From the sequence record NC_052653.1: a stretch of 64,000 bases of DNA. One strand, written 5' to 3'. Position 1 is the first letter of the stretch; each line of letters starts with the position of its first letter. The notes under the pieces were generated by a model. That model did no database searches. It had not been told where the DNA came from and saw only the letters and a list, made by a program, of their open reading frames with translations. The DNA comes from Escherichia phage vB_vPM_PD06. Below, in pieces: positions 12,058-63,720 of the stretch. Made by a program: the position numbers and the translations under genes.

Positions 12058-12239
12058 CGTTTTCACAGTAACTATAACAAAAAACTAAGTGAATGTCAAG
12101 ATATTTTTACTAAAATTATTATTTAAATTGAAGCCTAGTTATGGAATCGAACCATATTTCGTATTTAGTTAGACAAAGCGGTCTAACATATTTTTCAGGC
12201 TTTGATGGCCTCGGAATTACCAAATACCCTACTAGGCGT

Positions 12240-13179: not shown

Positions 13180-14913
13180 TTAGTCAACCTGGATGGTTCC
13201 CATAGTACGAAGAACCTCTACATCAACACGGTTGCGGATATCAGTGAATGTTTCATCACGACCTTCTACTTGTGGTGTAATAACCTTACCATTCTTGAAG
13301 ATAACTTGTAACTCATTGTCTTCATCCTGGATATCTTTAAAAGAAAGATTATCTACAAGAGAAAGATTACCATTGGTATCATTAACAACCTTAATAAAAC
13401 CTTTTGCAGAGCGTTTACCAGGATCAGTTTTAGGCTCCTTACTTACCAAAATTTCGTGTTCACCGATGATACTACCTGTTGCTTTAACAGCAAAACCAAA
13501 AGTATCTCGTGTATTGAACTGATAAGTATAACTACCAACACCAAATACAATATTGGAAGCTGCAAAACCTTTCTTCTTCAGTCGGCGTAAGATCTCGTGT
13601 TCTCGTTCAACAGTAATAGAATCACCATAAATCATACCGATATGCTGATCAAGAACCTTGTAGCCTTTTCGGTTGATAGTACCACCAAACACTTCCCAAA
13701 GGATTTGAATAGAACCTACTGCTTCACAATAAGGAATCTCATAAGTTTCATCAATACAGTCAGCAACACTGCAATCCTGAAGAACATTGTAATACTTATT
13801 AACATCAGCCAAATGAACTACTTCAGTGGCTGTCGCAATACCATTATTTAAGAGGTCTTGATAGTTATCAAAAGATTCAACATTGTATCCTGCAACAACT
13901 TTAACCGGATCTCCTGAATCTGGACGAATAACAAGACGACCATTTCGTGACATAATGGAATCTTTCAATTCTACCAGAATGCGAGTCAATACAGCCCAAT
14001 AGTCATAAGAGTCTGCTACATATGAACAAAAACCTTCTGGAACAATTTCTTCGATATAACGACGAAGAAACTCTTTTTCTGCTACATAACGAAGCCCATC
14101 TACATCATCTTTAAGATGTGGGAAATGTTTCTTCAGATCTTCAACAATAGATCCAATGTTAGTCGTTGCTACTGAATGTTCTGTTGCCGGAATCGAACCT
14201 GCAACAAACTGATCATAATCAATACCATAATAGTCATGCACAGTTTCAATAGCCAGAATATTATCTGTTCCTGTGAACGATGCCAAGTGAGCGATACCAC
14301 TCTTATAACCATCTTCGATATTACTTAAACCACGTAGGCTAAAATCATGACACTGGAAGTTAACGTGATCAATATTATCACACGTTGCCATCGCATATGC
14401 CATAGCGATACGCTTATACTGAAAAGCTGCTGTGGCATTAGTCATTGTCTTCCAAGTTTCATCTGACAACAGTGTTTCCACATAGTTAGTTAACCAAAAG
14501 AATTTTTCTAAAGTATTATGCACAGTAAACACAGGAACACCAATAGGACACAAAACACCTTCTGGCAGAGATCGAACTTCCAGCGGAAGATAACCTAAAT
14601 CGTGCAATTCTCCCCAACATTCCGCAGAAGGAGCAGAAGCACCTAACGCATTTTTAGACATACGATAAAATTTATTTACTGCTGCACTACGAGACATTTT
14701 AAAGAAGCTATCCCACATAGTTACAAGAGCATCAGTGACTGCTCGACGAATACCTAAAACAATCACACCACGTGCTTCACGATCTGCATAGTGTGCAAAG
14801 TTTTTATCATTACGAGGAGTTAAATTAGAGAAAATAAGTTTTGTATTTTGGTTGTACATCTGCTTGTGACCAGGTTTGTACCAATCAGTAGCAAAAGGTG
14901 CAAAAATATTCAT
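13180..14913 (-). CDS. nadV: Nicotinamide phosphoribosyltransferase (NAMPT)
   Basis: 577 aa; N-terminal MNIFAPFATDWYKPGHKQMY and overall length typical of NAMPT family. Confidence 0.85.
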   Translation of the reverse strand: MNIFAPFATDWYKPGHKQMYNQNTKLIFSNLTPRNDKNFAHYADREARGVIVLGIRRAVTDALVTMWDSFFKMSRSAAVNKFYRMSKNALGASAPSAECWGELHDLGYLPLEVRSLPEGVLCPIGVPVFTVHNTLEKFFWLTNYVETLLSDETWKTMTNATAAFQYKRIAMAYAMATCDNIDHVNFQCHDFSLRGLSNIEDGYKSGIAHLASFTGTDNILAIETVHDYYGIDYDQFVAGSIPATEHSVATTNIGSIVEDLKKHFPHLKDDVDGLRYVAEKEFLRRYIEEIVPEGFCSYVADSYDYWAVLTRILVELKDSIMSRNGRLVIRPDSGDPVKVVAGYNVESFDNYQDLLNNGIATATEVVHLADVNKYYNVLQDCSVADCIDETYEIPYCEAVGSIQILWEVFGGTINRKGYKVLDQHIGMIYGDSITVEREHEILRRLKKKGFAASNIVFGVGSYTYQFNTRDTFGFAVKATGSIIGEHEILVSKEPKTDPGKRSAKGFIKVVNDTNGNLSLVDNLSFKDIQDEDNELQVIFKNGKVITPQVEGRDETFTDIRNRVDVEVLRTMGTIQVD

Positions 14914-14984: not shown

Positions 14985-15878
14985 TTAAAAATTCCACACG
15001 TATGGAGATACAATTTGTTGTTGCAAATCTGACTGATTCTTAACAAGAACACCAGAATCTTCTTGGATGTTATCTTCCCACACATTAAGAGAATGAATGC
15101 AGTCAAAGTGCTCACTTAACTCTTTAAGACCTTTAGAAAAGATACCGTGTGTAACATATAGCTCAATCTTACCTGCGTTACGAGCACGTAGCACTTTAGC
15201 CAATTCGATAAAAGTTCTACCACCATCACAGATATCATCTACGATCATCAGGTTACGCTTATTGAAATCCTGTACAGAAATGTCTGTACGAACAATAGCA
15301 CCTGTTGCGGTATCTCTAACCTTCTCTGCACAGAACACATCTAAAGACATTTTCTTAGATAATTTAAATATTTTCTTAAGAGCACCACCATCAGGGCTAA
15401 CAAGAGCAAAATTCTCCATACGTAACTTCCACTTTAAAGTTTCGTAAGCAATCTCTTCTTGAGGCATTACACAGAGTCTGTCAAACACTGCTGGAGTAAC
15501 ATCACTATGCGGATCAGCAACGATAACACGTGAGAAATTTAATGAATTAATTATAGAAGCAAATGCTTTAACTCCGAATGCTTCCCCAGGCTCACACACT
15601 CTGTCTTGTCGTGCATACGGCACATACAACATGAGTAAATCAACACAATATGGTTTATGATATAGCATATTGTCCAATGCATTCTTAGTCATAACCAAAG
15701 TCATCAAGTCTTTAGCAGATCTTACTTCTAAAGTGAGTAAGATTCTGTCTGTAGCATGATTGAAACCTGATAGATTCGTATCTAATTGAACATGTTGTTC
15801 TCCACCAGAGAATGTAAACACTTTAACGTCTACATCAGTAACATAACAGTCAACACCATGCAGAATACTAACTTTCAT
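14985..15878 (-). CDS. prs: Ribose-phosphate pyrophosphokinase (PRPP synthetase)-like
   Basis: YARQDR motif, SPDGG, and PRPP-binding loop MIVDDICDGGRT. Confidence 0.8.
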   Translation of the reverse strand: MKVSILHGVDCYVTDVDVKVFTFSGGEQHVQLDTNLSGFNHATDRILLTLEVRSAKDLMTLVMTKNALDNMLYHKPYCVDLLMLYVPYARQDRVCEPGEAFGVKAFASIINSLNFSRVIVADPHSDVTPAVFDRLCVMPQEEIAYETLKWKLRMENFALVSPDGGALKKIFKLSKKMSLDVFCAEKVRDTATGAIVRTDISVQDFNKRNLMIVDDICDGGRTFIELAKVLRARNAGKIELYVTHGIFSKGLKELSEHFDCIHSLNVWEDNIQEDSGVLVKNQSDLQQQIVSPYVWNF

Positions 15879-15879
15879 T

Positions 15880-16298
15880 CTTTATCTCCTTAGTTGCGTT
15901 AGGACTTTATGTTCTCTACTCTACATACAGATAGATCTAAAGTCAATAGATATTTATTATTTAATTAATAATAAAATTAATAAATAATTAATAAATAATC
16001 TATTGTTAGTATAGAGCATGTATGTTAGTATTATAGATATAACATAGTGCTATATGTAGACTACTCAGTTGTCTGTTAGATCATGTATCACAAGATTAGA
16101 TAACACCCCCTCGCTGCGCTCGGCGTTTTTCGGGGGTTAGGGTAGCATACTTTTTTGCGTTTGTCAACACCTTTTTGGATTATTTTTAAGTACAACCTGA
16201 ACCTCCTAAAAACGATTGTAACGAGTTTTACTGTGAGGTAAGGTGATTGCATATCTTAGAGGCTATTAGCTCGTTACAGAGCCATACAGGAGGGAATA
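15880..16298. promoter_or_regulatory. Divergent intergenic control region
   Basis: 419-bp non-coding gap between diverging gene blocks; 50-bp pure A/T tract with reiterated TAATTAATAA units (15951-16000) and a GC-rich hairpin near 16105-16135. Confidence 0.45.
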
Positions 16299-16667
16299 AT
16301 GAGGGTCACACGTTACGTTAGAAGTGAAACAATAGATGGAGGCATAATGTATGCTTTCTACGATGATAAAACTTTTTGTTCTGCATTCTATGAAGAAGAC
16401 TTGTCTACGGAATGGCAACAAATCATCTTCTTACTTGACATTTTGAAAAGAAGAGATAACTTTGAAGGTATTGAGTGGACAGTGGGAGGCAAAGTTATCG
16501 TTGCAGGTTTAAGCAAACATGAGTTGCTTGACTTAGACTGTAAACTTTGTAATTATCAATTCTCAAAACGTTTACCATTAGAAAGACAGTTAGGAGTTGA
16601 GATTCATGTTGACTTGGGCGATGGAGTATCCTATACTCTCAACAATCATAGTGCTGACGTTAATTAG
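16299..16667 (+). CDS. Hypothetical protein
   Basis: 122-aa ORF, first gene of plus-strand block, GGAGGG upstream. Confidence 0.5.
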   Translation: MRVTRYVRSETIDGGIMYAFYDDKTFCSAFYEEDLSTEWQQIIFLLDILKRRDNFEGIEWTVGGKVIVAGLSKHELLDLDCKLCNYQFSKRLPLERQLGVEIHVDLGDGVSYTLNNHSADVN

Positions 16668-55656: not shown

Positions 55657-55863
55657 TTTCTACTCCTCATAGATAAAATCTATTAAAAACCTGCTATCAA
55701 TCGGTACAAACAGTTTTACTTTTCGTAAAAAACATGCTACCCTAATCTTATATACCGAGCGATAGCGAGGTAGAGAATATTCCATGTTATACATGGAAAG
55801 AGTATATGTAATGTTACTAACTCTATAACTAACTATATACTCTTTATATCTTACTTACTACTC

Positions 55864-60401: not shown

Positions 60402-60579
60402 AACCTCTCCTTAATTGTGAAAAATGTTATCAATCAATATGACTAATAATACAAGGATAGAAGGGAGTAGGAACAGAAATCTTAACATTATGTGATGCGT
60501 GTGAGAAGCGGCTTTAGCGCCAGCCGCCAATAAGCCTACTAGTCCTACAATAAAGAGCAGTTGTTCAGGGACACCCATA

Positions 60580-60804
60580 TTATGGAACACTTGGATACTC
60601 CGTAAGTTCGGCTAACAATTGAATATGTGGACACGTGAATTGTTGTCCTGGATAGCGTGAGCTAATATCCTCCAGCAAAGCAATCACAGCATTATGCAAT
60701 GCTTCGTAATCTTCATAATACACCATTTCTCCATTAGGATCTTCCACAATATCGCAGTGGCAAGCGTGAGCAGTACACGCATCCCATTCCAGACGTTTTA
60801 CCAT
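60580..60804 (-). CDS. Hypothetical protein
   Basis: 74-aa ORF, Cys/His-rich. Confidence 0.45.
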   Translation of the reverse strand: MVKRLEWDACTAHACHCDIVEDPNGEMVYYEDYEALHNAVIALLEDISSRYPGQQFTCPHIQLLAELTEYPSVP

Positions 60805-60850
60805 AAACCCTCCTATTTATATATCAAGAAACACAAAAGAATAACATCTA

Positions 60851-61099
60851 TCACCAAACCGTTACTACTCCGGTACGTAGCGTCTCTTCATGTCCCCAAA
60901 TATCCGCTTCAATTGTAATTACAACCCACTCCGTGCTCCACTGAATACCAGTGATCTCTGTGAGATGTGCAGCTTCACGTTGTAGTGAGGCTGTGTCTGT
61001 AAGAGACGCACGTAAAGCATCCAATTCTTGTTCAATTTTGGTACGTTCTTCTTCGGTAATCGGTGTACCAACACGATCAAAGGTAAAAATATCTAACAT
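60851..61099 (-). CDS. Hypothetical protein
   Basis: 82-aa ORF. Confidence 0.45.
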   Translation of the reverse strand: MLDIFTFDRVGTPITEEERTKIEQELDALRASLTDTASLQREAAHLTEITGIQWSTEWVVITIEADIWGHEETLRTGVVTVW

Positions 61100-63388: not shown

Positions 63389-63720
63389 GCATTATTTGCA
63401 TCTTCGATTCTGTCTTTCACCCGCTGCAATAATGAAGGATTTAGTATAGGAATTAGTATAGGTATTCCCTATCAATTATTCTATATATACCTATTATTTT
63501 TAACACACCCTTTGTACATAATATAGACAAATAAATATCTATGCCACAAAAATTTTCCGGTATACCCGATTTATTTCGACACACCCCGTTTTCATAAGCG
63601 TAAAGTCAATAATATCAATAACTTGCCGCAAAATACTGCTCGCTTGCGAGAGGTGCTTAACGCGATTTTCAGCGCCCCCCGATTTCTGCCGACCGTCCCC
63701 CTCAAATATCAATGAGAATT

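What the first reader, a model, noticed from the sequence alone, without database searches (positions are those of the whole stretch)
15880..16298. Divergent control region with a 50-bp pure A/T reiterated tract and a GC-rich hairpin
This gap separates the two main transcription directions. It contains reiterated TAATTAATAA units (15951-16000) and, about 100 bp further on, an isolated GC-rich palindromic patch (16105-16135). These are candidates for divergent early promoters, a DNA-unwinding element or an origin.
Basis: seen in the sequence. Interest (0 to 1): 0.4.

Follow-up and report, generated by a model that had tools for sequence, protein, structure and literature searches.

The report
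Three-promoter control region in phi92-like phage
The gap is the main divergent promoter region of a phi92-like E. coli phage: the A/T tract lies between two back-to-back promoters, and the "GC hairpin" is part of a third, strongly conserved promoter cassette that recurs three times per genome and also occurs in satellite-like islands of other enterobacteria.

Summary
Both observed features are real. The pure A/T run (15950-15999, 50 bp) is the longest in the window and its least stable duplex (z about 5). The GC patch (16104-16137) ties for the most GC-rich 31-mer. The window is a phi92-like Justusliebigvirus, and the gap separates the PRPP-synthetase/NAMPT/tRNA leftward operon from the rightward gp106 operon.

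The A/T tract fills the space between the -35 hexamers of two back-to-back sigma70-type promoters: P_L1 (TTGACT-17-TAGAGT) and P_R1 (TTGTTA-17-TGtTAGTAT). This geometry is kept in 13 diverse relatives. The tract length jumps by 11-12 bp (45, 56 or 57 bp between the hexamers); the window carries an expanded allele.

The GC "hairpin" is not conserved and folds no better than shuffled sequence. What is conserved, and invariant at 16110-16171, is a leftward promoter cassette: TTGACA-17-TGcTACCCT followed by a transcribed box, CGAGCGnAGCGAG. It occurs three times per genome, throughout Stephanstirmvirinae, and in integrase/primase islands of Citrobacter, Buttiauxella and Scandinavium. It is always followed by unusually easily melted DNA.

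Divergent promoters: supported by sequence and comparison only. Unwinding-prone DNA: confirmed as a physical property. Origin: untested, but the layout resembles T4 oriF/oriG. No transcription starts have been mapped.

The parts
15918..15923 (-). P_L1 -10 hexamer, TAGAGT. The predicted start is near 15911, about 33 nt upstream of the PRPP-synthetase ATG at 15878.
   Evidence: Tool scan and PWM score 12.0, among the top 22 raw hits in 64 kb. One substitution in 13 close relatives. A positional equivalent is present in 13 diverse loci.
15941..15946 (-). P_L1 -35 hexamer, TTGACT.
   Evidence: Invariant in 13 close relatives. Relatives carry TTGACC, TTGATC or TTGACT.
15950..15999 (.). 50-bp pure A/T tract filling the UP-element positions of both P_L1 and P_R1. 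It is the least stable duplex in the window.
   Evidence: There are 56 bp between the two -35 hexamers here, against 45 or 57 bp in close relatives and 32-46 bp in more distant ones.
15975..15985 (.). Window-specific 11-bp duplication (AATTAATAAAT) that lengthens the tract from the 45-bp allele to the 56-bp allele.
   Evidence: Alignment of 13 close relatives; the insertion is present only in the window.
16003..16008 (+). P_R1 -35 hexamer, TTGTTA.
   Evidence: PWM score 8.9-9.0. Invariant in 13 close relatives. It is TTGACT or TTGACG in many relatives.
16023..16031 (+). P_R1 extended -10, TGtTAGTAT. The predicted start is near 16038.
   Evidence: The hexamer is invariant in close relatives. 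Its distance from the cassette box is fixed at 77-83 nt in 12 of 13 diverse loci.
16039..16092 (.). 54-nt block that is invariant among close relatives. It lies in the overlap between the convergent P_R1 and P_L2 transcripts and contains the inverted repeat AGAC-N9-GTCT (plus strand AGACTACTCAGTTGTCT).
   Evidence: no variable column. A 20-mer from it is conserved in Tr1 and in metagenomic relatives. Its role was not tested.
16104..16137 (.).
   Evidence: The outer stem is missing in copies 2 and 3 and in Tr1 and the Klebsiella relatives. There are indels at 16105 and 16109 in close relatives.
16110..16123 (-). Conserved transcribed box, CCGAGCGCAGCGAG on the minus strand (family consensus CGAGCG-n(1-2)-AGCGAG), about 8-22 nt downstream of the predicted P_L2 start.
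   Evidence: Kept in synteny-derived orthologues and in paralogues. 57 unique instances in public collections. Its distance to the -10 varies.
16139..16147 (-). P_L2 extended -10, TGcTACCCT. The predicted start is near 16131.
   Evidence: PWM score 14.0. The 11-mer TGCTACCCTAA is invariant in all paralogues and in orthologues found by synteny.
16162..16167 (-). P_L2 -35 hexamer, TTGACA.
   Evidence: GTCAAY lies exactly 15 nt after TAGGGTAGCA in nearly all 57 instances, although it was not part of the search pattern.
55715..55770 (+). Second copy of the cassette in the window: TTTACT-17-TGcTACCCT, then the box at 55755-55770. It is antisense to the gp023-homologue gene and is followed by the second least stable DNA in the window.

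Best explanation
The gap is a conserved compound control region read by the host sigma70 RNA polymerase. It contains three promoters.

(1) P_L1 (TTGACT-17-TAGAGT, start near 15911) drives the leftward PRPP-synthetase/NAMPT/tRNA operon.

(2) P_R1 (TTGTTA-17-TGtTAGTAT, start near 16038) fires rightward toward gp106A. The two -35 hexamers sit back to back. The A/T tract fills the DNA between them, that is, positions -38 to about -90 of each promoter, where alpha-CTD/UP-element contacts are made. The tract is best read as a shared UP-like, easily deformed spacer. It expands and contracts by 11-12 bp (about one helical turn) through slippage, and the 50-bp run in this window is one expanded allele.

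(3) The GC-rich patch is not a functional hairpin. It is the G+C-rich discriminator and initial transcribed 'box' of a third promoter, P_L2 (TTGACA-17-TGcTACCCT, start near 16131). P_L2 fires leftward and converges on P_R1, with predicted starts about 94 bp apart.

The P_L2 cassette (-35, 17-bp spacer, TGCTACCCTAA, then CGAGCGnAGCGAG) is a specialised module. It is present three times per genome, across Stephanstirmvirinae, and in satellite-like islands.

Shown here: the sequence elements, their spacing, their conservation and their distribution.

Inferred: that they are active promoters; that the tract acts through alpha-CTD contacts; that P_L2 and P_R1 interfere with each other; and that the box is the recognition site of a trans-acting factor, or an RNA 5' module, that sets this promoter class apart.
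For: Identity and context: 97.9-99% identical to phi92-like phages, and phi92 annotates nothing in the gap.

Promoter scores: P_L2 14.0 and P_L1 12.0, where only 22 raw hits in 64 kb (both strands) reach 12 or more; P_R1 8.9 with an extended -10.

The phage clearly uses sigma70-type promoters. Of the top 40 sites, 19 are intergenic (13% of the DNA) and 35 are co-directional with genes. The rV5 paper reports the same for a related group (PMC3606486).

All three of the longest A/T runs in the window lie directly upstream of strong -35 hexamers.

The back-to-back pair and the facing cassette are found in 13 diverse loci, with 32-57 bp of 68-96% A/T between the hexamers. The distance from the box to the P_R1 -10 is 77-83 nt in 12 of the 13.

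Among 13 close relatives, substitutions avoid the hexamers and the whole cassette at 16110-16171. The tract shows two independent duplications, of 11 and 12 bp.

Cassette: three copies per genome. There are 57 unique instances, with GTCAAY at a fixed 15 nt although it was not in the search pattern. In copy 3 the cassette is co-directional with a conserved small gene and lies about 100 nt upstream of it.

Islands share only the roughly 45 nt from the -10 through the box.
Against: No transcription start has been mapped in any phage of this group; the literature searches found no transcriptome.

P_R1 is only a moderate match in this window, and 12 of 13 relatives have an alternative rightward site that is weaker here.

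The tract matches the UP-element consensus only partially (my own comparison, not a tool result). Many relatives manage with about 33 bp of only 68-80% A/T.

The -10 TACCCT matches the sigma70 consensus at only 3 of 6 positions. Its invariance goes beyond what sigma70 recognition needs, so something else constrains it.

Copy 2 points against the local gene flow.

The invariance of the -10 and box among collection hits is partly forced by the search pattern.

The specific link between the cassette and very unstable downstream DNA is not explained by a plain promoter model.
Confidence: 0.62

Rival explanations
1. Transcription-primed replication origin. The cassette promoter fires into the easily melted A/T DNA. 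The G-rich 5' RNA (GAGCGnAGCGAGGGG) starts a persistent RNA-DNA hybrid that primes leading-strand synthesis, as at T4 oriF/oriG. The three cassettes would then be three origins, with the A/T tract as the unwinding element of this one. This is compatible with the promoters also serving gene expression.
For: The tract is the least stable duplex in the window, and the second least stable segment starts exactly at the end of cassette copy 2.

In the whole genome, three of the five least stable 200-bp windows lie within 300 nt downstream of the three cassettes. The cassettes outrank all 41 other strong intergenic promoters on this measure: 4.39, 3.25 and 3.19 against a median of 1.26 and a next-best value of 2.70.

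The pattern holds in 33 distinct instances: 88% reach the 99th percentile locally, and downstream exceeds upstream with p about 2e-10.

T4 oriF/oriG are described as a promoter plus a downstream DUE with an R-loop primer (PMC4412123).

The islands that carry the cassette encode a DUF5906 primase/helicase.
Against: There are no replication data. The GC-skew minimum coincides with the transcription switch, and the rV5 authors reached the same conclusion for that phage.

In copy 3 the unstable DNA is largely the start of an A/T-rich small gene. In many copy-1 relatives the tract is short and only moderately A/T-rich.

The instances are not phylogenetically independent, and island loci are compared with GC-richer host flanks.

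By precedent, satellites copy helper promoters (P4 and P2 late promoters; from my own knowledge), not helper origins. No island protein has a homologue in the phage.
Confidence: 0.17
2. The GC-rich patch acts as an RNA or DNA stem-loop, for example as an intrinsic terminator or attenuator of rightward transcripts from P_R1, or as a stabilising 5' hairpin.
For: The scan tool flags one terminator-like site (16112-16125 plus a T-run) against 0.2 expected. The patch can fold at -15.8 kcal/mol.
Against: The fold is no better than shuffles. The T-run and the outer stem are absent in Tr1, the Klebsiella relatives and the paralogous copies. The C-run arm has indels within the genus. With the predicted P_L2 start near 16131, one arm would not be transcribed on the minus strand. 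Rfam gives no significant match.
Confidence: 0.05
3. The A/T tract has no specific function. It is a slippage-prone, low-complexity spacer tolerated in non-coding DNA, and the neighbouring promoter-like hexamers work without it.
For: The tract shows copy-number polymorphism from two independent duplications. One public record is broken or truncated inside it. Relatives have much shorter and less pure versions. Predicted curvature is ordinary.
Against: An A/T-rich spacer between back-to-back -35 hexamers is kept in all 13 diverse loci. Its length classes differ by about one helical turn (32-34, 43-46 and 56-57 bp). The other long A/T runs in the window also sit at UP-element positions.
Confidence: 0.12

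Closest known systems
Back-to-back divergent sigma70 promoters with A/T-rich UP-element-type upstream DNA (E. coli rrnB P1 type UP elements; the bidirectional promoters predicted at the strand-switch junctions of phage rV5)
   Same: Two promoters with near-consensus -35 hexamers, 17-bp spacers and TAnnnT -10 hexamers fire in opposite directions from a strand-switch gap. A/T-only DNA occupies positions -38 to -60 and beyond of both. The rV5 genome paper predicts bidirectional promoters at such junctions and notes many extended -10 promoters.
   Different: One tract serves both promoters and reaches 50 bp of pure A/T. It is length-polymorphic in steps of 11-12 bp. It matches the UP consensus only partially. 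No alpha-CTD dependence or start site has been measured.
T4 replication origins oriF (uvsY) and oriG (gene 34): a promoter plus a downstream DNA-unwinding element, primed by an R-loop
   Same: A promoter followed within 300 nt by the most easily melted DNA of the genome. Several copies per genome. The promoter can also serve gene expression. The architecture is as summarised in PMC4412123.
   Different: The T4 origin promoters are MotA-dependent middle promoters, whereas this one looks like a host sigma70 extended -10 promoter with an invariant TACCCT and a conserved transcribed box. No hybrid formation or initiation has been shown, and the distance to the unstable DNA varies from 0 to about 170 nt.
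T4-type PeSL cassettes (promoter-early stem-loop mobile regulatory cassettes; recalled from my own knowledge, not checked here)
   Same: A short repeated cassette containing an early-type sigma70 promoter next to a G+C-rich element. It lies in gaps between small genes and is shared between related phage genomes.
   Different: There are only three copies per genome. The stem-loop is not conserved. The G+C-rich element lies downstream of the promoter and is transcribed, rather than acting as an upstream terminator. The cassette is also found in non-phage integrative islands.
Satellite and helper promoter sharing (P4 Psid and PLL versus the P2 late promoters; from my own knowledge)
   Same: A small integrative element with an integrase and a primase/helicase-type protein carries a promoter nearly identical to one in a family of large virulent phages. 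This suggests control by the same factor.
   Different: No helper relationship has been shown. The islands are in Citrobacter, Buttiauxella and Scandinavium, not in E. coli. The conserved element lies downstream of the -10, not at an upstream activator site.

Membership tests
sigma70-dependent promoter (P_L1, P_R1, P_L2) | -35 and -10 hexamers resembling TTGACA and TATAAT, separated by 16-18 bp | tested here: met
   TTGACT-17-TAGAGT (12.0), TTGTTA-17-TGtTAGTAT (8.9) and TTGACA-17-TGcTACCCT (14.0), against a 64-kb background with only 22 raw hits at 12 or more. The PWM frequencies were recalled from textbooks and are approximate.
sigma70-dependent promoter (P_L1, P_R1, P_L2) | Elements and spacing conserved in relatives while the flanking non-coding DNA diverges | tested here: met
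   The hexamers are invariant or nearly so in 13 close relatives. Positional equivalents occur in 13 diverse loci. The 17-bp spacing is fixed in nearly all of the 57 cassette instances.
sigma70-dependent promoter (P_L1, P_R1, P_L2) | A transcription start 6-8 nt downstream of the -10, and dependence on the sigma70 holoenzyme | not testable with these tools
   No transcriptome or 5'-end data for this phage group were found in the searched literature.
UP element | A/T-rich DNA at about -40 to -60, immediately upstream of the -35 hexamer | tested here: met
   The tract at 15950-15999 starts 3-4 bp from each -35 hexamer. The same placement holds for the two other longest A/T runs.
UP element | Match to the UP consensus, and stimulation that depends on the alpha-CTD | tested here: inconclusive
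   My own comparison with the consensus NNAAAWWTWTTTTNNNAAANNN (recalled) gives only a partial match. Alpha-CTD dependence cannot be tested here.
Intrinsic (rho-independent) terminator | A stable G+C-rich stem-loop immediately followed by a U-run, conserved among relatives | tested here: not met
   There is one weak tool hit (5-bp stem). The fold is no better than shuffles. The T-run and stem are absent in Tr1, the Klebsiella relatives and the paralogues.
Promoter-plus-DUE origin (T4 oriF/oriG type) | A promoter with an unusually easily unwound region just downstream | tested here: met
   All three cassettes outrank every other strong intergenic promoter in the genome for downstream duplex instability.
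Promoter-plus-DUE origin (T4 oriF/oriG type) | A persistent RNA-DNA hybrid and initiation of DNA synthesis at the site | not testable with these tools
   This needs marker-frequency, 2D-gel or R-loop mapping. GC skew is confounded by transcription direction.
Initiator/iteron or DnaA-type origin | Clustered initiator-binding repeats (iterons or DnaA boxes) next to the A/T-rich element, often with IHF sites | tested here: not met
   There is no DnaA box (up to 1 mismatch) between 15157 and 16703, and no IHF consensus in the gap. The only repeats are the A/T units themselves, whose number varies between strains.
Known RNA families (Rfam) | A score at or above the family's gathering threshold | tested here: not met
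   The best hit is GA-cis at 21.1 bits against a threshold of 34.7, E 0.12. There are no hits in the island loci.

The most novel reading that the evidence does not exclude
The cassette (TTGACA-17-TGCTACCCTAA plus the transcribed box CGAGCGnAGCGAG) together with the easily melted DNA downstream of it is a transcription-primed replication origin used three times per genome by phi92-like phages. On this reading the A/T tract is the unwinding element of this origin. The integrase/primase islands of Citrobacter, Buttiauxella and Scandinavium would have copied the cassette so that they are fired, by replication or induction, by a helper phage of this family. That would make them a previously undescribed satellite family for large virulent myoviruses.
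Probability: 0.15. Interest if true: 0.8.

Novelty: new variant of a known kind. Interest (0 to 1): 0.45.

Why it matters
No transcription map or replication origin is known for phi92-like phages (Stephanstirmvirinae), although they are widely isolated for therapy and biocontrol. This analysis gives three precise, testable promoter positions at the main strand-switch junction. It explains the striking A/T tract as a length-polymorphic shared upstream element. It replaces a supposed hairpin with a sharply defined 60-bp cassette. The cassette is invariant within the genus, recurs three times per genome, is tied to the most easily melted DNA of the genome, and is copied by small integrative islands in other enterobacteria. 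If the cassette proves to be the target of a phage regulator or an origin, it would give a handle on the temporal programme or the replication of this group. It would also point to a possible new helper-satellite relationship.

Tried and rejected
(1) RNA or DNA hairpin at the GC patch. The fold z-scores are only -0.65 to -1.6 and the stem is not conserved.

(2) Known RNA families. There is nothing significant in the gap or in the island loci, and no tRNA in the gap.

(3) Intrinsic terminator. The single hit is weak and not conserved.

(4) Reading the motif on the plus strand as a two-box promoter (CTCGCTnCGCTCGG as a '-35' and TAGGGT or TAGCAT as a '-10'). I rejected this because the distance between the boxes varies by 5-6 bp, whereas the opposite-strand TTGACA/TACCCT spacing is fixed at 17 bp. 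The plus-strand PWM hit TCGGCG-17-TAGCAT scores 7.2, with no real -35.

(5) A facing (convergent) promoter as a general property of the cassette. This holds only for the copy-1 class. For copies 2 and 3 and the islands, the opposing sites are no better than shuffles.

(6) The 54-aa minus-strand ORF at 16088-16252 that some records annotate. It overlaps the cassette and is absent in a 98%-identical genome.

(7) Genome terminus. phi92 and BME3 have direct terminal repeats of about 343 bp elsewhere in the genome. The ALITA record that ends in the tract is simply linearised or truncated there.

(8) Intrinsic curvature. The tract gives about 22 degrees per 30 bp, against a window mean of 17 and a 99th percentile of 43 (wedge parameters recalled from memory).

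(9) DnaA and IHF sites. None occur in the gap.

(10) A protein shared between the islands and the phage that might recognise the cassette. Only generic DNA methyltransferases on one contig are shared.

(11) Island counterparts in complete E. coli genomes. None were found.

(12) Tandem repeats or iterons in the islands' ORF-free region. None were found by TRF.

(13) Resemblance of GGGTAGCAT to the RfaH ops element GGCGGTAGnnTG (recalled from memory). It matches at 8-9 of 12 positions but lacks the C that pairs in the ops hairpin, and its orientation is inconsistent among the copies. I did not pursue it.

(14) Resemblance of GCTACCCTAA to sigmaS-type -10 regions (-13C, TATACT). This is noted as a lead only.

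Full report
**What the window is**

The 2.6 kb around the finding is 97.9-99% identical to 53 phage records of the genus Justusliebigvirus (phi92-like myoviruses, about 147 kb). The gap at 15879-16298 lies between the PRPP-synthetase gene (phi92 gp107 homologue, 14985-15878, minus strand) and the gp106A homologue (16299-16667, plus strand). To the left lie NAMPT and 15 tRNA genes on the minus strand. GC skew flips from about -0.17 to +0.20 exactly here and flips back near 51 kb. The richly annotated phi92 record places nothing in the gap except the two ribosome-binding sites.

**Check of the observation**

- The pure A/T run is 15950-15999 (50 bp). It is the longest in the window, the next being 34 and 19 bp. 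About 2e-6 such runs are expected by chance.
- Tandem Repeats Finder reports an 11-nt unit, TAATTAATAAA, at 3.4 copies.
- The GC patch is also real: 74% G+C over 31 nt, tied for the highest in the window.
- Its predicted fold (-15.8 kcal/mol) is no better than that of dinucleotide shuffles, with z from -0.65 to -1.6.
- Rfam gives nothing significant.

**The A/T tract sits between two back-to-back promoters**

A position-weight scan finds TTGACT-17-TAGAGT on the minus strand (-35 at 15946..15941, -10 at 15923..15918, score 12.0). It finds TTGTTA-17-TGtTAGTAT on the plus strand (-35 at 16003-16008, -10 at 16026-16031, score 8.9). The textbook base frequencies used for the scan were recalled from memory and are approximate.

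The tract fills the 56 bp between the two -35 hexamers, which is the UP-element zone of both promoters.

The phage clearly has a sigma70-type promoter repertoire (TTGACA-17/18-TGnTAnnnT). Of the 40 best sites in the window, 19 are intergenic, although intergenic DNA is only 13% of the sequence, and 35 are co-directional with genes. The other two longest A/T runs (4083-4116 and 12111-12129) also lie directly upstream of strong -35 hexamers. The rV5 genome paper reports the same kind of host-type promoters, many with extended -10 regions. It expects bidirectional promoters at strand-switch junctions (PMC3606486).

**Comparative support**

I recovered the gap from several sets of relatives:

- 12 further close relatives;
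- Citrobacter phage Tr1, 70% identical over the centre of the gap;
- Klebsiella phages with 57-64% PRPP-synthetase identity;
- metagenomic and IMG/VR contigs.

All 13 diverse loci of this class show a leftward promoter and a rightward promoter back to back. The hexamers are separated by 32-57 bp of 68-96% A/T DNA.

Among close relatives the distance between the hexamers is 45 bp in phi92 and six others. It is 57 bp in four relatives, through a 12-bp duplication on the left side. It is 56 bp in this window only, through an independent 11-bp duplication at 15975-15985. In the Klebsiella clade the distance is 32 or 43 bp.

So the conserved feature is the promoter geometry. The extreme 50-bp run is one expanded allele of a tract that changes by about one helical turn at a time. 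Phage 'inny' annotates a repeat_region inside it. The ALITA record is linearised and truncated inside it.

**The GC 'hairpin' is part of a conserved promoter cassette on the other strand**

Tr1, the Klebsiella relatives and the paralogous copies lack the CCCCC/GGGGG stem. They keep CTCGCT-n-CGCTCGG, then 9-14 nt, then TTAGGGTAGCA, then 15 nt, then GTCAAY.

On the minus strand this reads TTGACA (16167..16162), a 17-bp spacer, TGc-TACCCT (16147..16139), and then the transcribed box CCGAGCGCAGCGAG (16123..16110). It scores 14.0, the best site in the gap.

Among 13 close relatives, 16110-16171 is invariant, whereas the C-run arm of the supposed stem carries indels.

The complete genome of a 98%-identical phage has three copies:

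- Copy 1 is the one in this gap.
- Copy 2 is in the window at 55715-55770. It reads on the plus strand and is antisense to the gp023 homologue.
- Copy 3 lies outside the window. It is co-directional with a conserved small hydrophobic ORF and about 100 nt upstream of it.

A pattern scan of public collections returned 10 viral, 10 genomic and 43 metagenomic stretches, giving 57 unique instances with up to three per contig of about 150 kb. GTCAAY was not part of the search pattern, yet it lies exactly 15 nt after GCA in nearly all of them. The distance from the box to the -10, by contrast, varies. The fixed 17-bp spacing is the reason for reading the element as a promoter on that strand.

Among named isolates the cassette is confined to Stephanstirmvirinae lineages.

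In the copy-1 class the cassette faces the rightward promoter at a fixed distance: 77-83 nt from the box to the -10 in 12 of 13 loci. P_L2 and P_R1 are therefore convergent, with predicted starts about 94 bp apart. The overlap (16039-16092) is invariant among close relatives. A facing promoter is not a general feature of the other copies.

**An unexpected regularity that bears on the origin idea**

Nearest-neighbour duplex stability was computed with parameters recalled from memory. It shows the tract region as the least stable DNA in the window at 50, 100 and 200 bp (z 5.3, 5.4 and 4.6). The second least stable segment at 100-200 bp begins exactly where cassette copy 2 ends.

In the whole genome, three of the five least stable 200-bp windows lie within 300 nt downstream of the three cassettes. 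Against 41 other strong intergenic sigma70-like sites, with a median z of 1.26 and a best value of 2.70, the cassettes score 4.39, 3.25 and 3.19.

Across 33 distinct instances, 88% have a window at or above the 99th percentile downstream, and the upstream flanks do not (paired Wilcoxon p about 2e-10). These instances are not phylogenetically independent.

This is the layout of the T4 origins oriF and oriG: a promoter, a downstream unwinding element, and an R-loop primer (PMC4412123).

There are no replication data, however. GC skew is confounded by transcription direction. The gap has no DnaA or IHF sites. Predicted curvature of the tract is ordinary.

**Islands**

Five of the genomic hits and several metagenomic ones lie in small integrative elements of Citrobacter, Buttiauxella and Scandinavium. 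In each, a tyrosine integrase gene ends just upstream of the cassette. About 860 nt of ORF-free DNA follows; it is conserved among the islands and contains hairpins that show compensatory changes. Then come small ORFs, an endonuclease VII-like protein and a DUF5906 primase/helicase-type protein.

Similarity to the phages is confined to the roughly 45 nt from the -10 through the box. No core island protein has a homologue in the phage. No such island occurs in complete E. coli genomes.

By analogy with P4 and P2 (from my own knowledge), a satellite that shares a helper's promoter suggests control by a common factor. This is a lead and has not been demonstrated.

**Conclusion**

The finding is real. 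Its interpretation is partly right. The gap is a conserved three-promoter control region. The A/T tract is a shared, length-polymorphic upstream element that is also the most easily melted DNA of the window. The GC patch belongs to a specialised promoter cassette and is not a hairpin. Whether the cassette and its downstream A/T DNA also act as a replication origin, and what recognises the box, remain open. The experiments that would decide are listed under next steps.

Noticed in passing
L041 (Citrobacter sp. OP27 chromosome, CP191518.1) 238-5332; also L040, L046, L048, L035, L085, L060, L089, L090: Small integrative elements with this layout: a tyrosine integrase; the same promoter cassette; about 860 nt of ORF-free DNA that is conserved among the islands and has hairpins showing compensatory changes; small ORFs; an endonuclease VII-like protein; and a DUF5906 primase/helicase-type protein. 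They look like phage satellites and share only the roughly 45-nt cassette with the phages. None is present in complete E. coli genomes, and there is no Rfam match.
   Followed up: partly
window 55715-55798: Second cassette copy (TTTACT-17-TGcTACCCT, box at 55755-55770). It points against the local gene flow and is followed by a hairpin at 55780-55798 (TTCCATG...CATGGAA). In relatives and in the islands the stem reads TTTCATG...CATGAAA, a compensatory change. It may mark a small antisense RNA.
   Followed up: partly
MG065639.1 (A150) about 60510-60915, outside the window: Third cassette copy. It lies about 100 nt upstream of a small hydrophobic ORF (MDVMTMRF...) that is conserved in many metagenomic relatives. 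In this genome, the leader just after the box is complementary to the Shine-Dalgarno region of that ORF.
   Followed up: partly
window 4083-4116 and 12111-12129: The second and third longest pure A/T runs of the window each lie directly upstream of a strong minus-strand TTGACA promoter (last base of the -10 at 4050 and 12071). This suggests that UP-like tracts are a regular feature of this phage's strongest promoters.
   Followed up: partly
window 16088-16252 (minus strand): A 54-aa ORF that overlaps the cassette is annotated as a hypothetical protein in some relatives (cardinal, KMB37, VEcB). It is absent in a 98%-identical genome, so it is probably a spurious gene call.
   Followed up: partly
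window 16038 and 16034-16062: Twelve of 13 close relatives have C at 16038, which creates an additional rightward site, TAGACA-17-TAGACT. This window has T, which weakens that site.
   Followed up: no
L001 772-922 (phi92 record, inside the NAMPT gene; equivalent to about window 14270-14420): The phi92 record annotates a 151-nt 'hypothetical tRNA' inside the NAMPT coding sequence. ARAGORN finds no tRNA at the equivalent place in the window, so the annotation is doubtful.
   Followed up: no
PP359570.1 (phage ALITA) record ends; L011 and L024: The linear record starts and ends inside the A/T tract and lacks about 30 nt of it. This is most likely an assembly or linearisation artefact at low-complexity DNA, not a physical terminus, because phi92 and BME3 have direct terminal repeats of about 343 bp elsewhere.
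   Followed up: yes
window 63673-63703 and 63442-63541: The other most G+C-rich 31-mer of the window lies close to one of its least stable 100-bp segments. Both are near the position that corresponds to the phi92 left terminal repeat. The least stable DNA of the whole genome also lies just beyond this end of the window.
   Followed up: no
L044, L047, L087 (Chloroflexota MAGs): These pattern hits belong to an unrelated repeat, GATTCCTCGCTKCGCTCGGAATGACAGG, which occurs in inverted pairs. They lack the TTGACA element and are chance overlaps with the search pattern.
   Followed up: no
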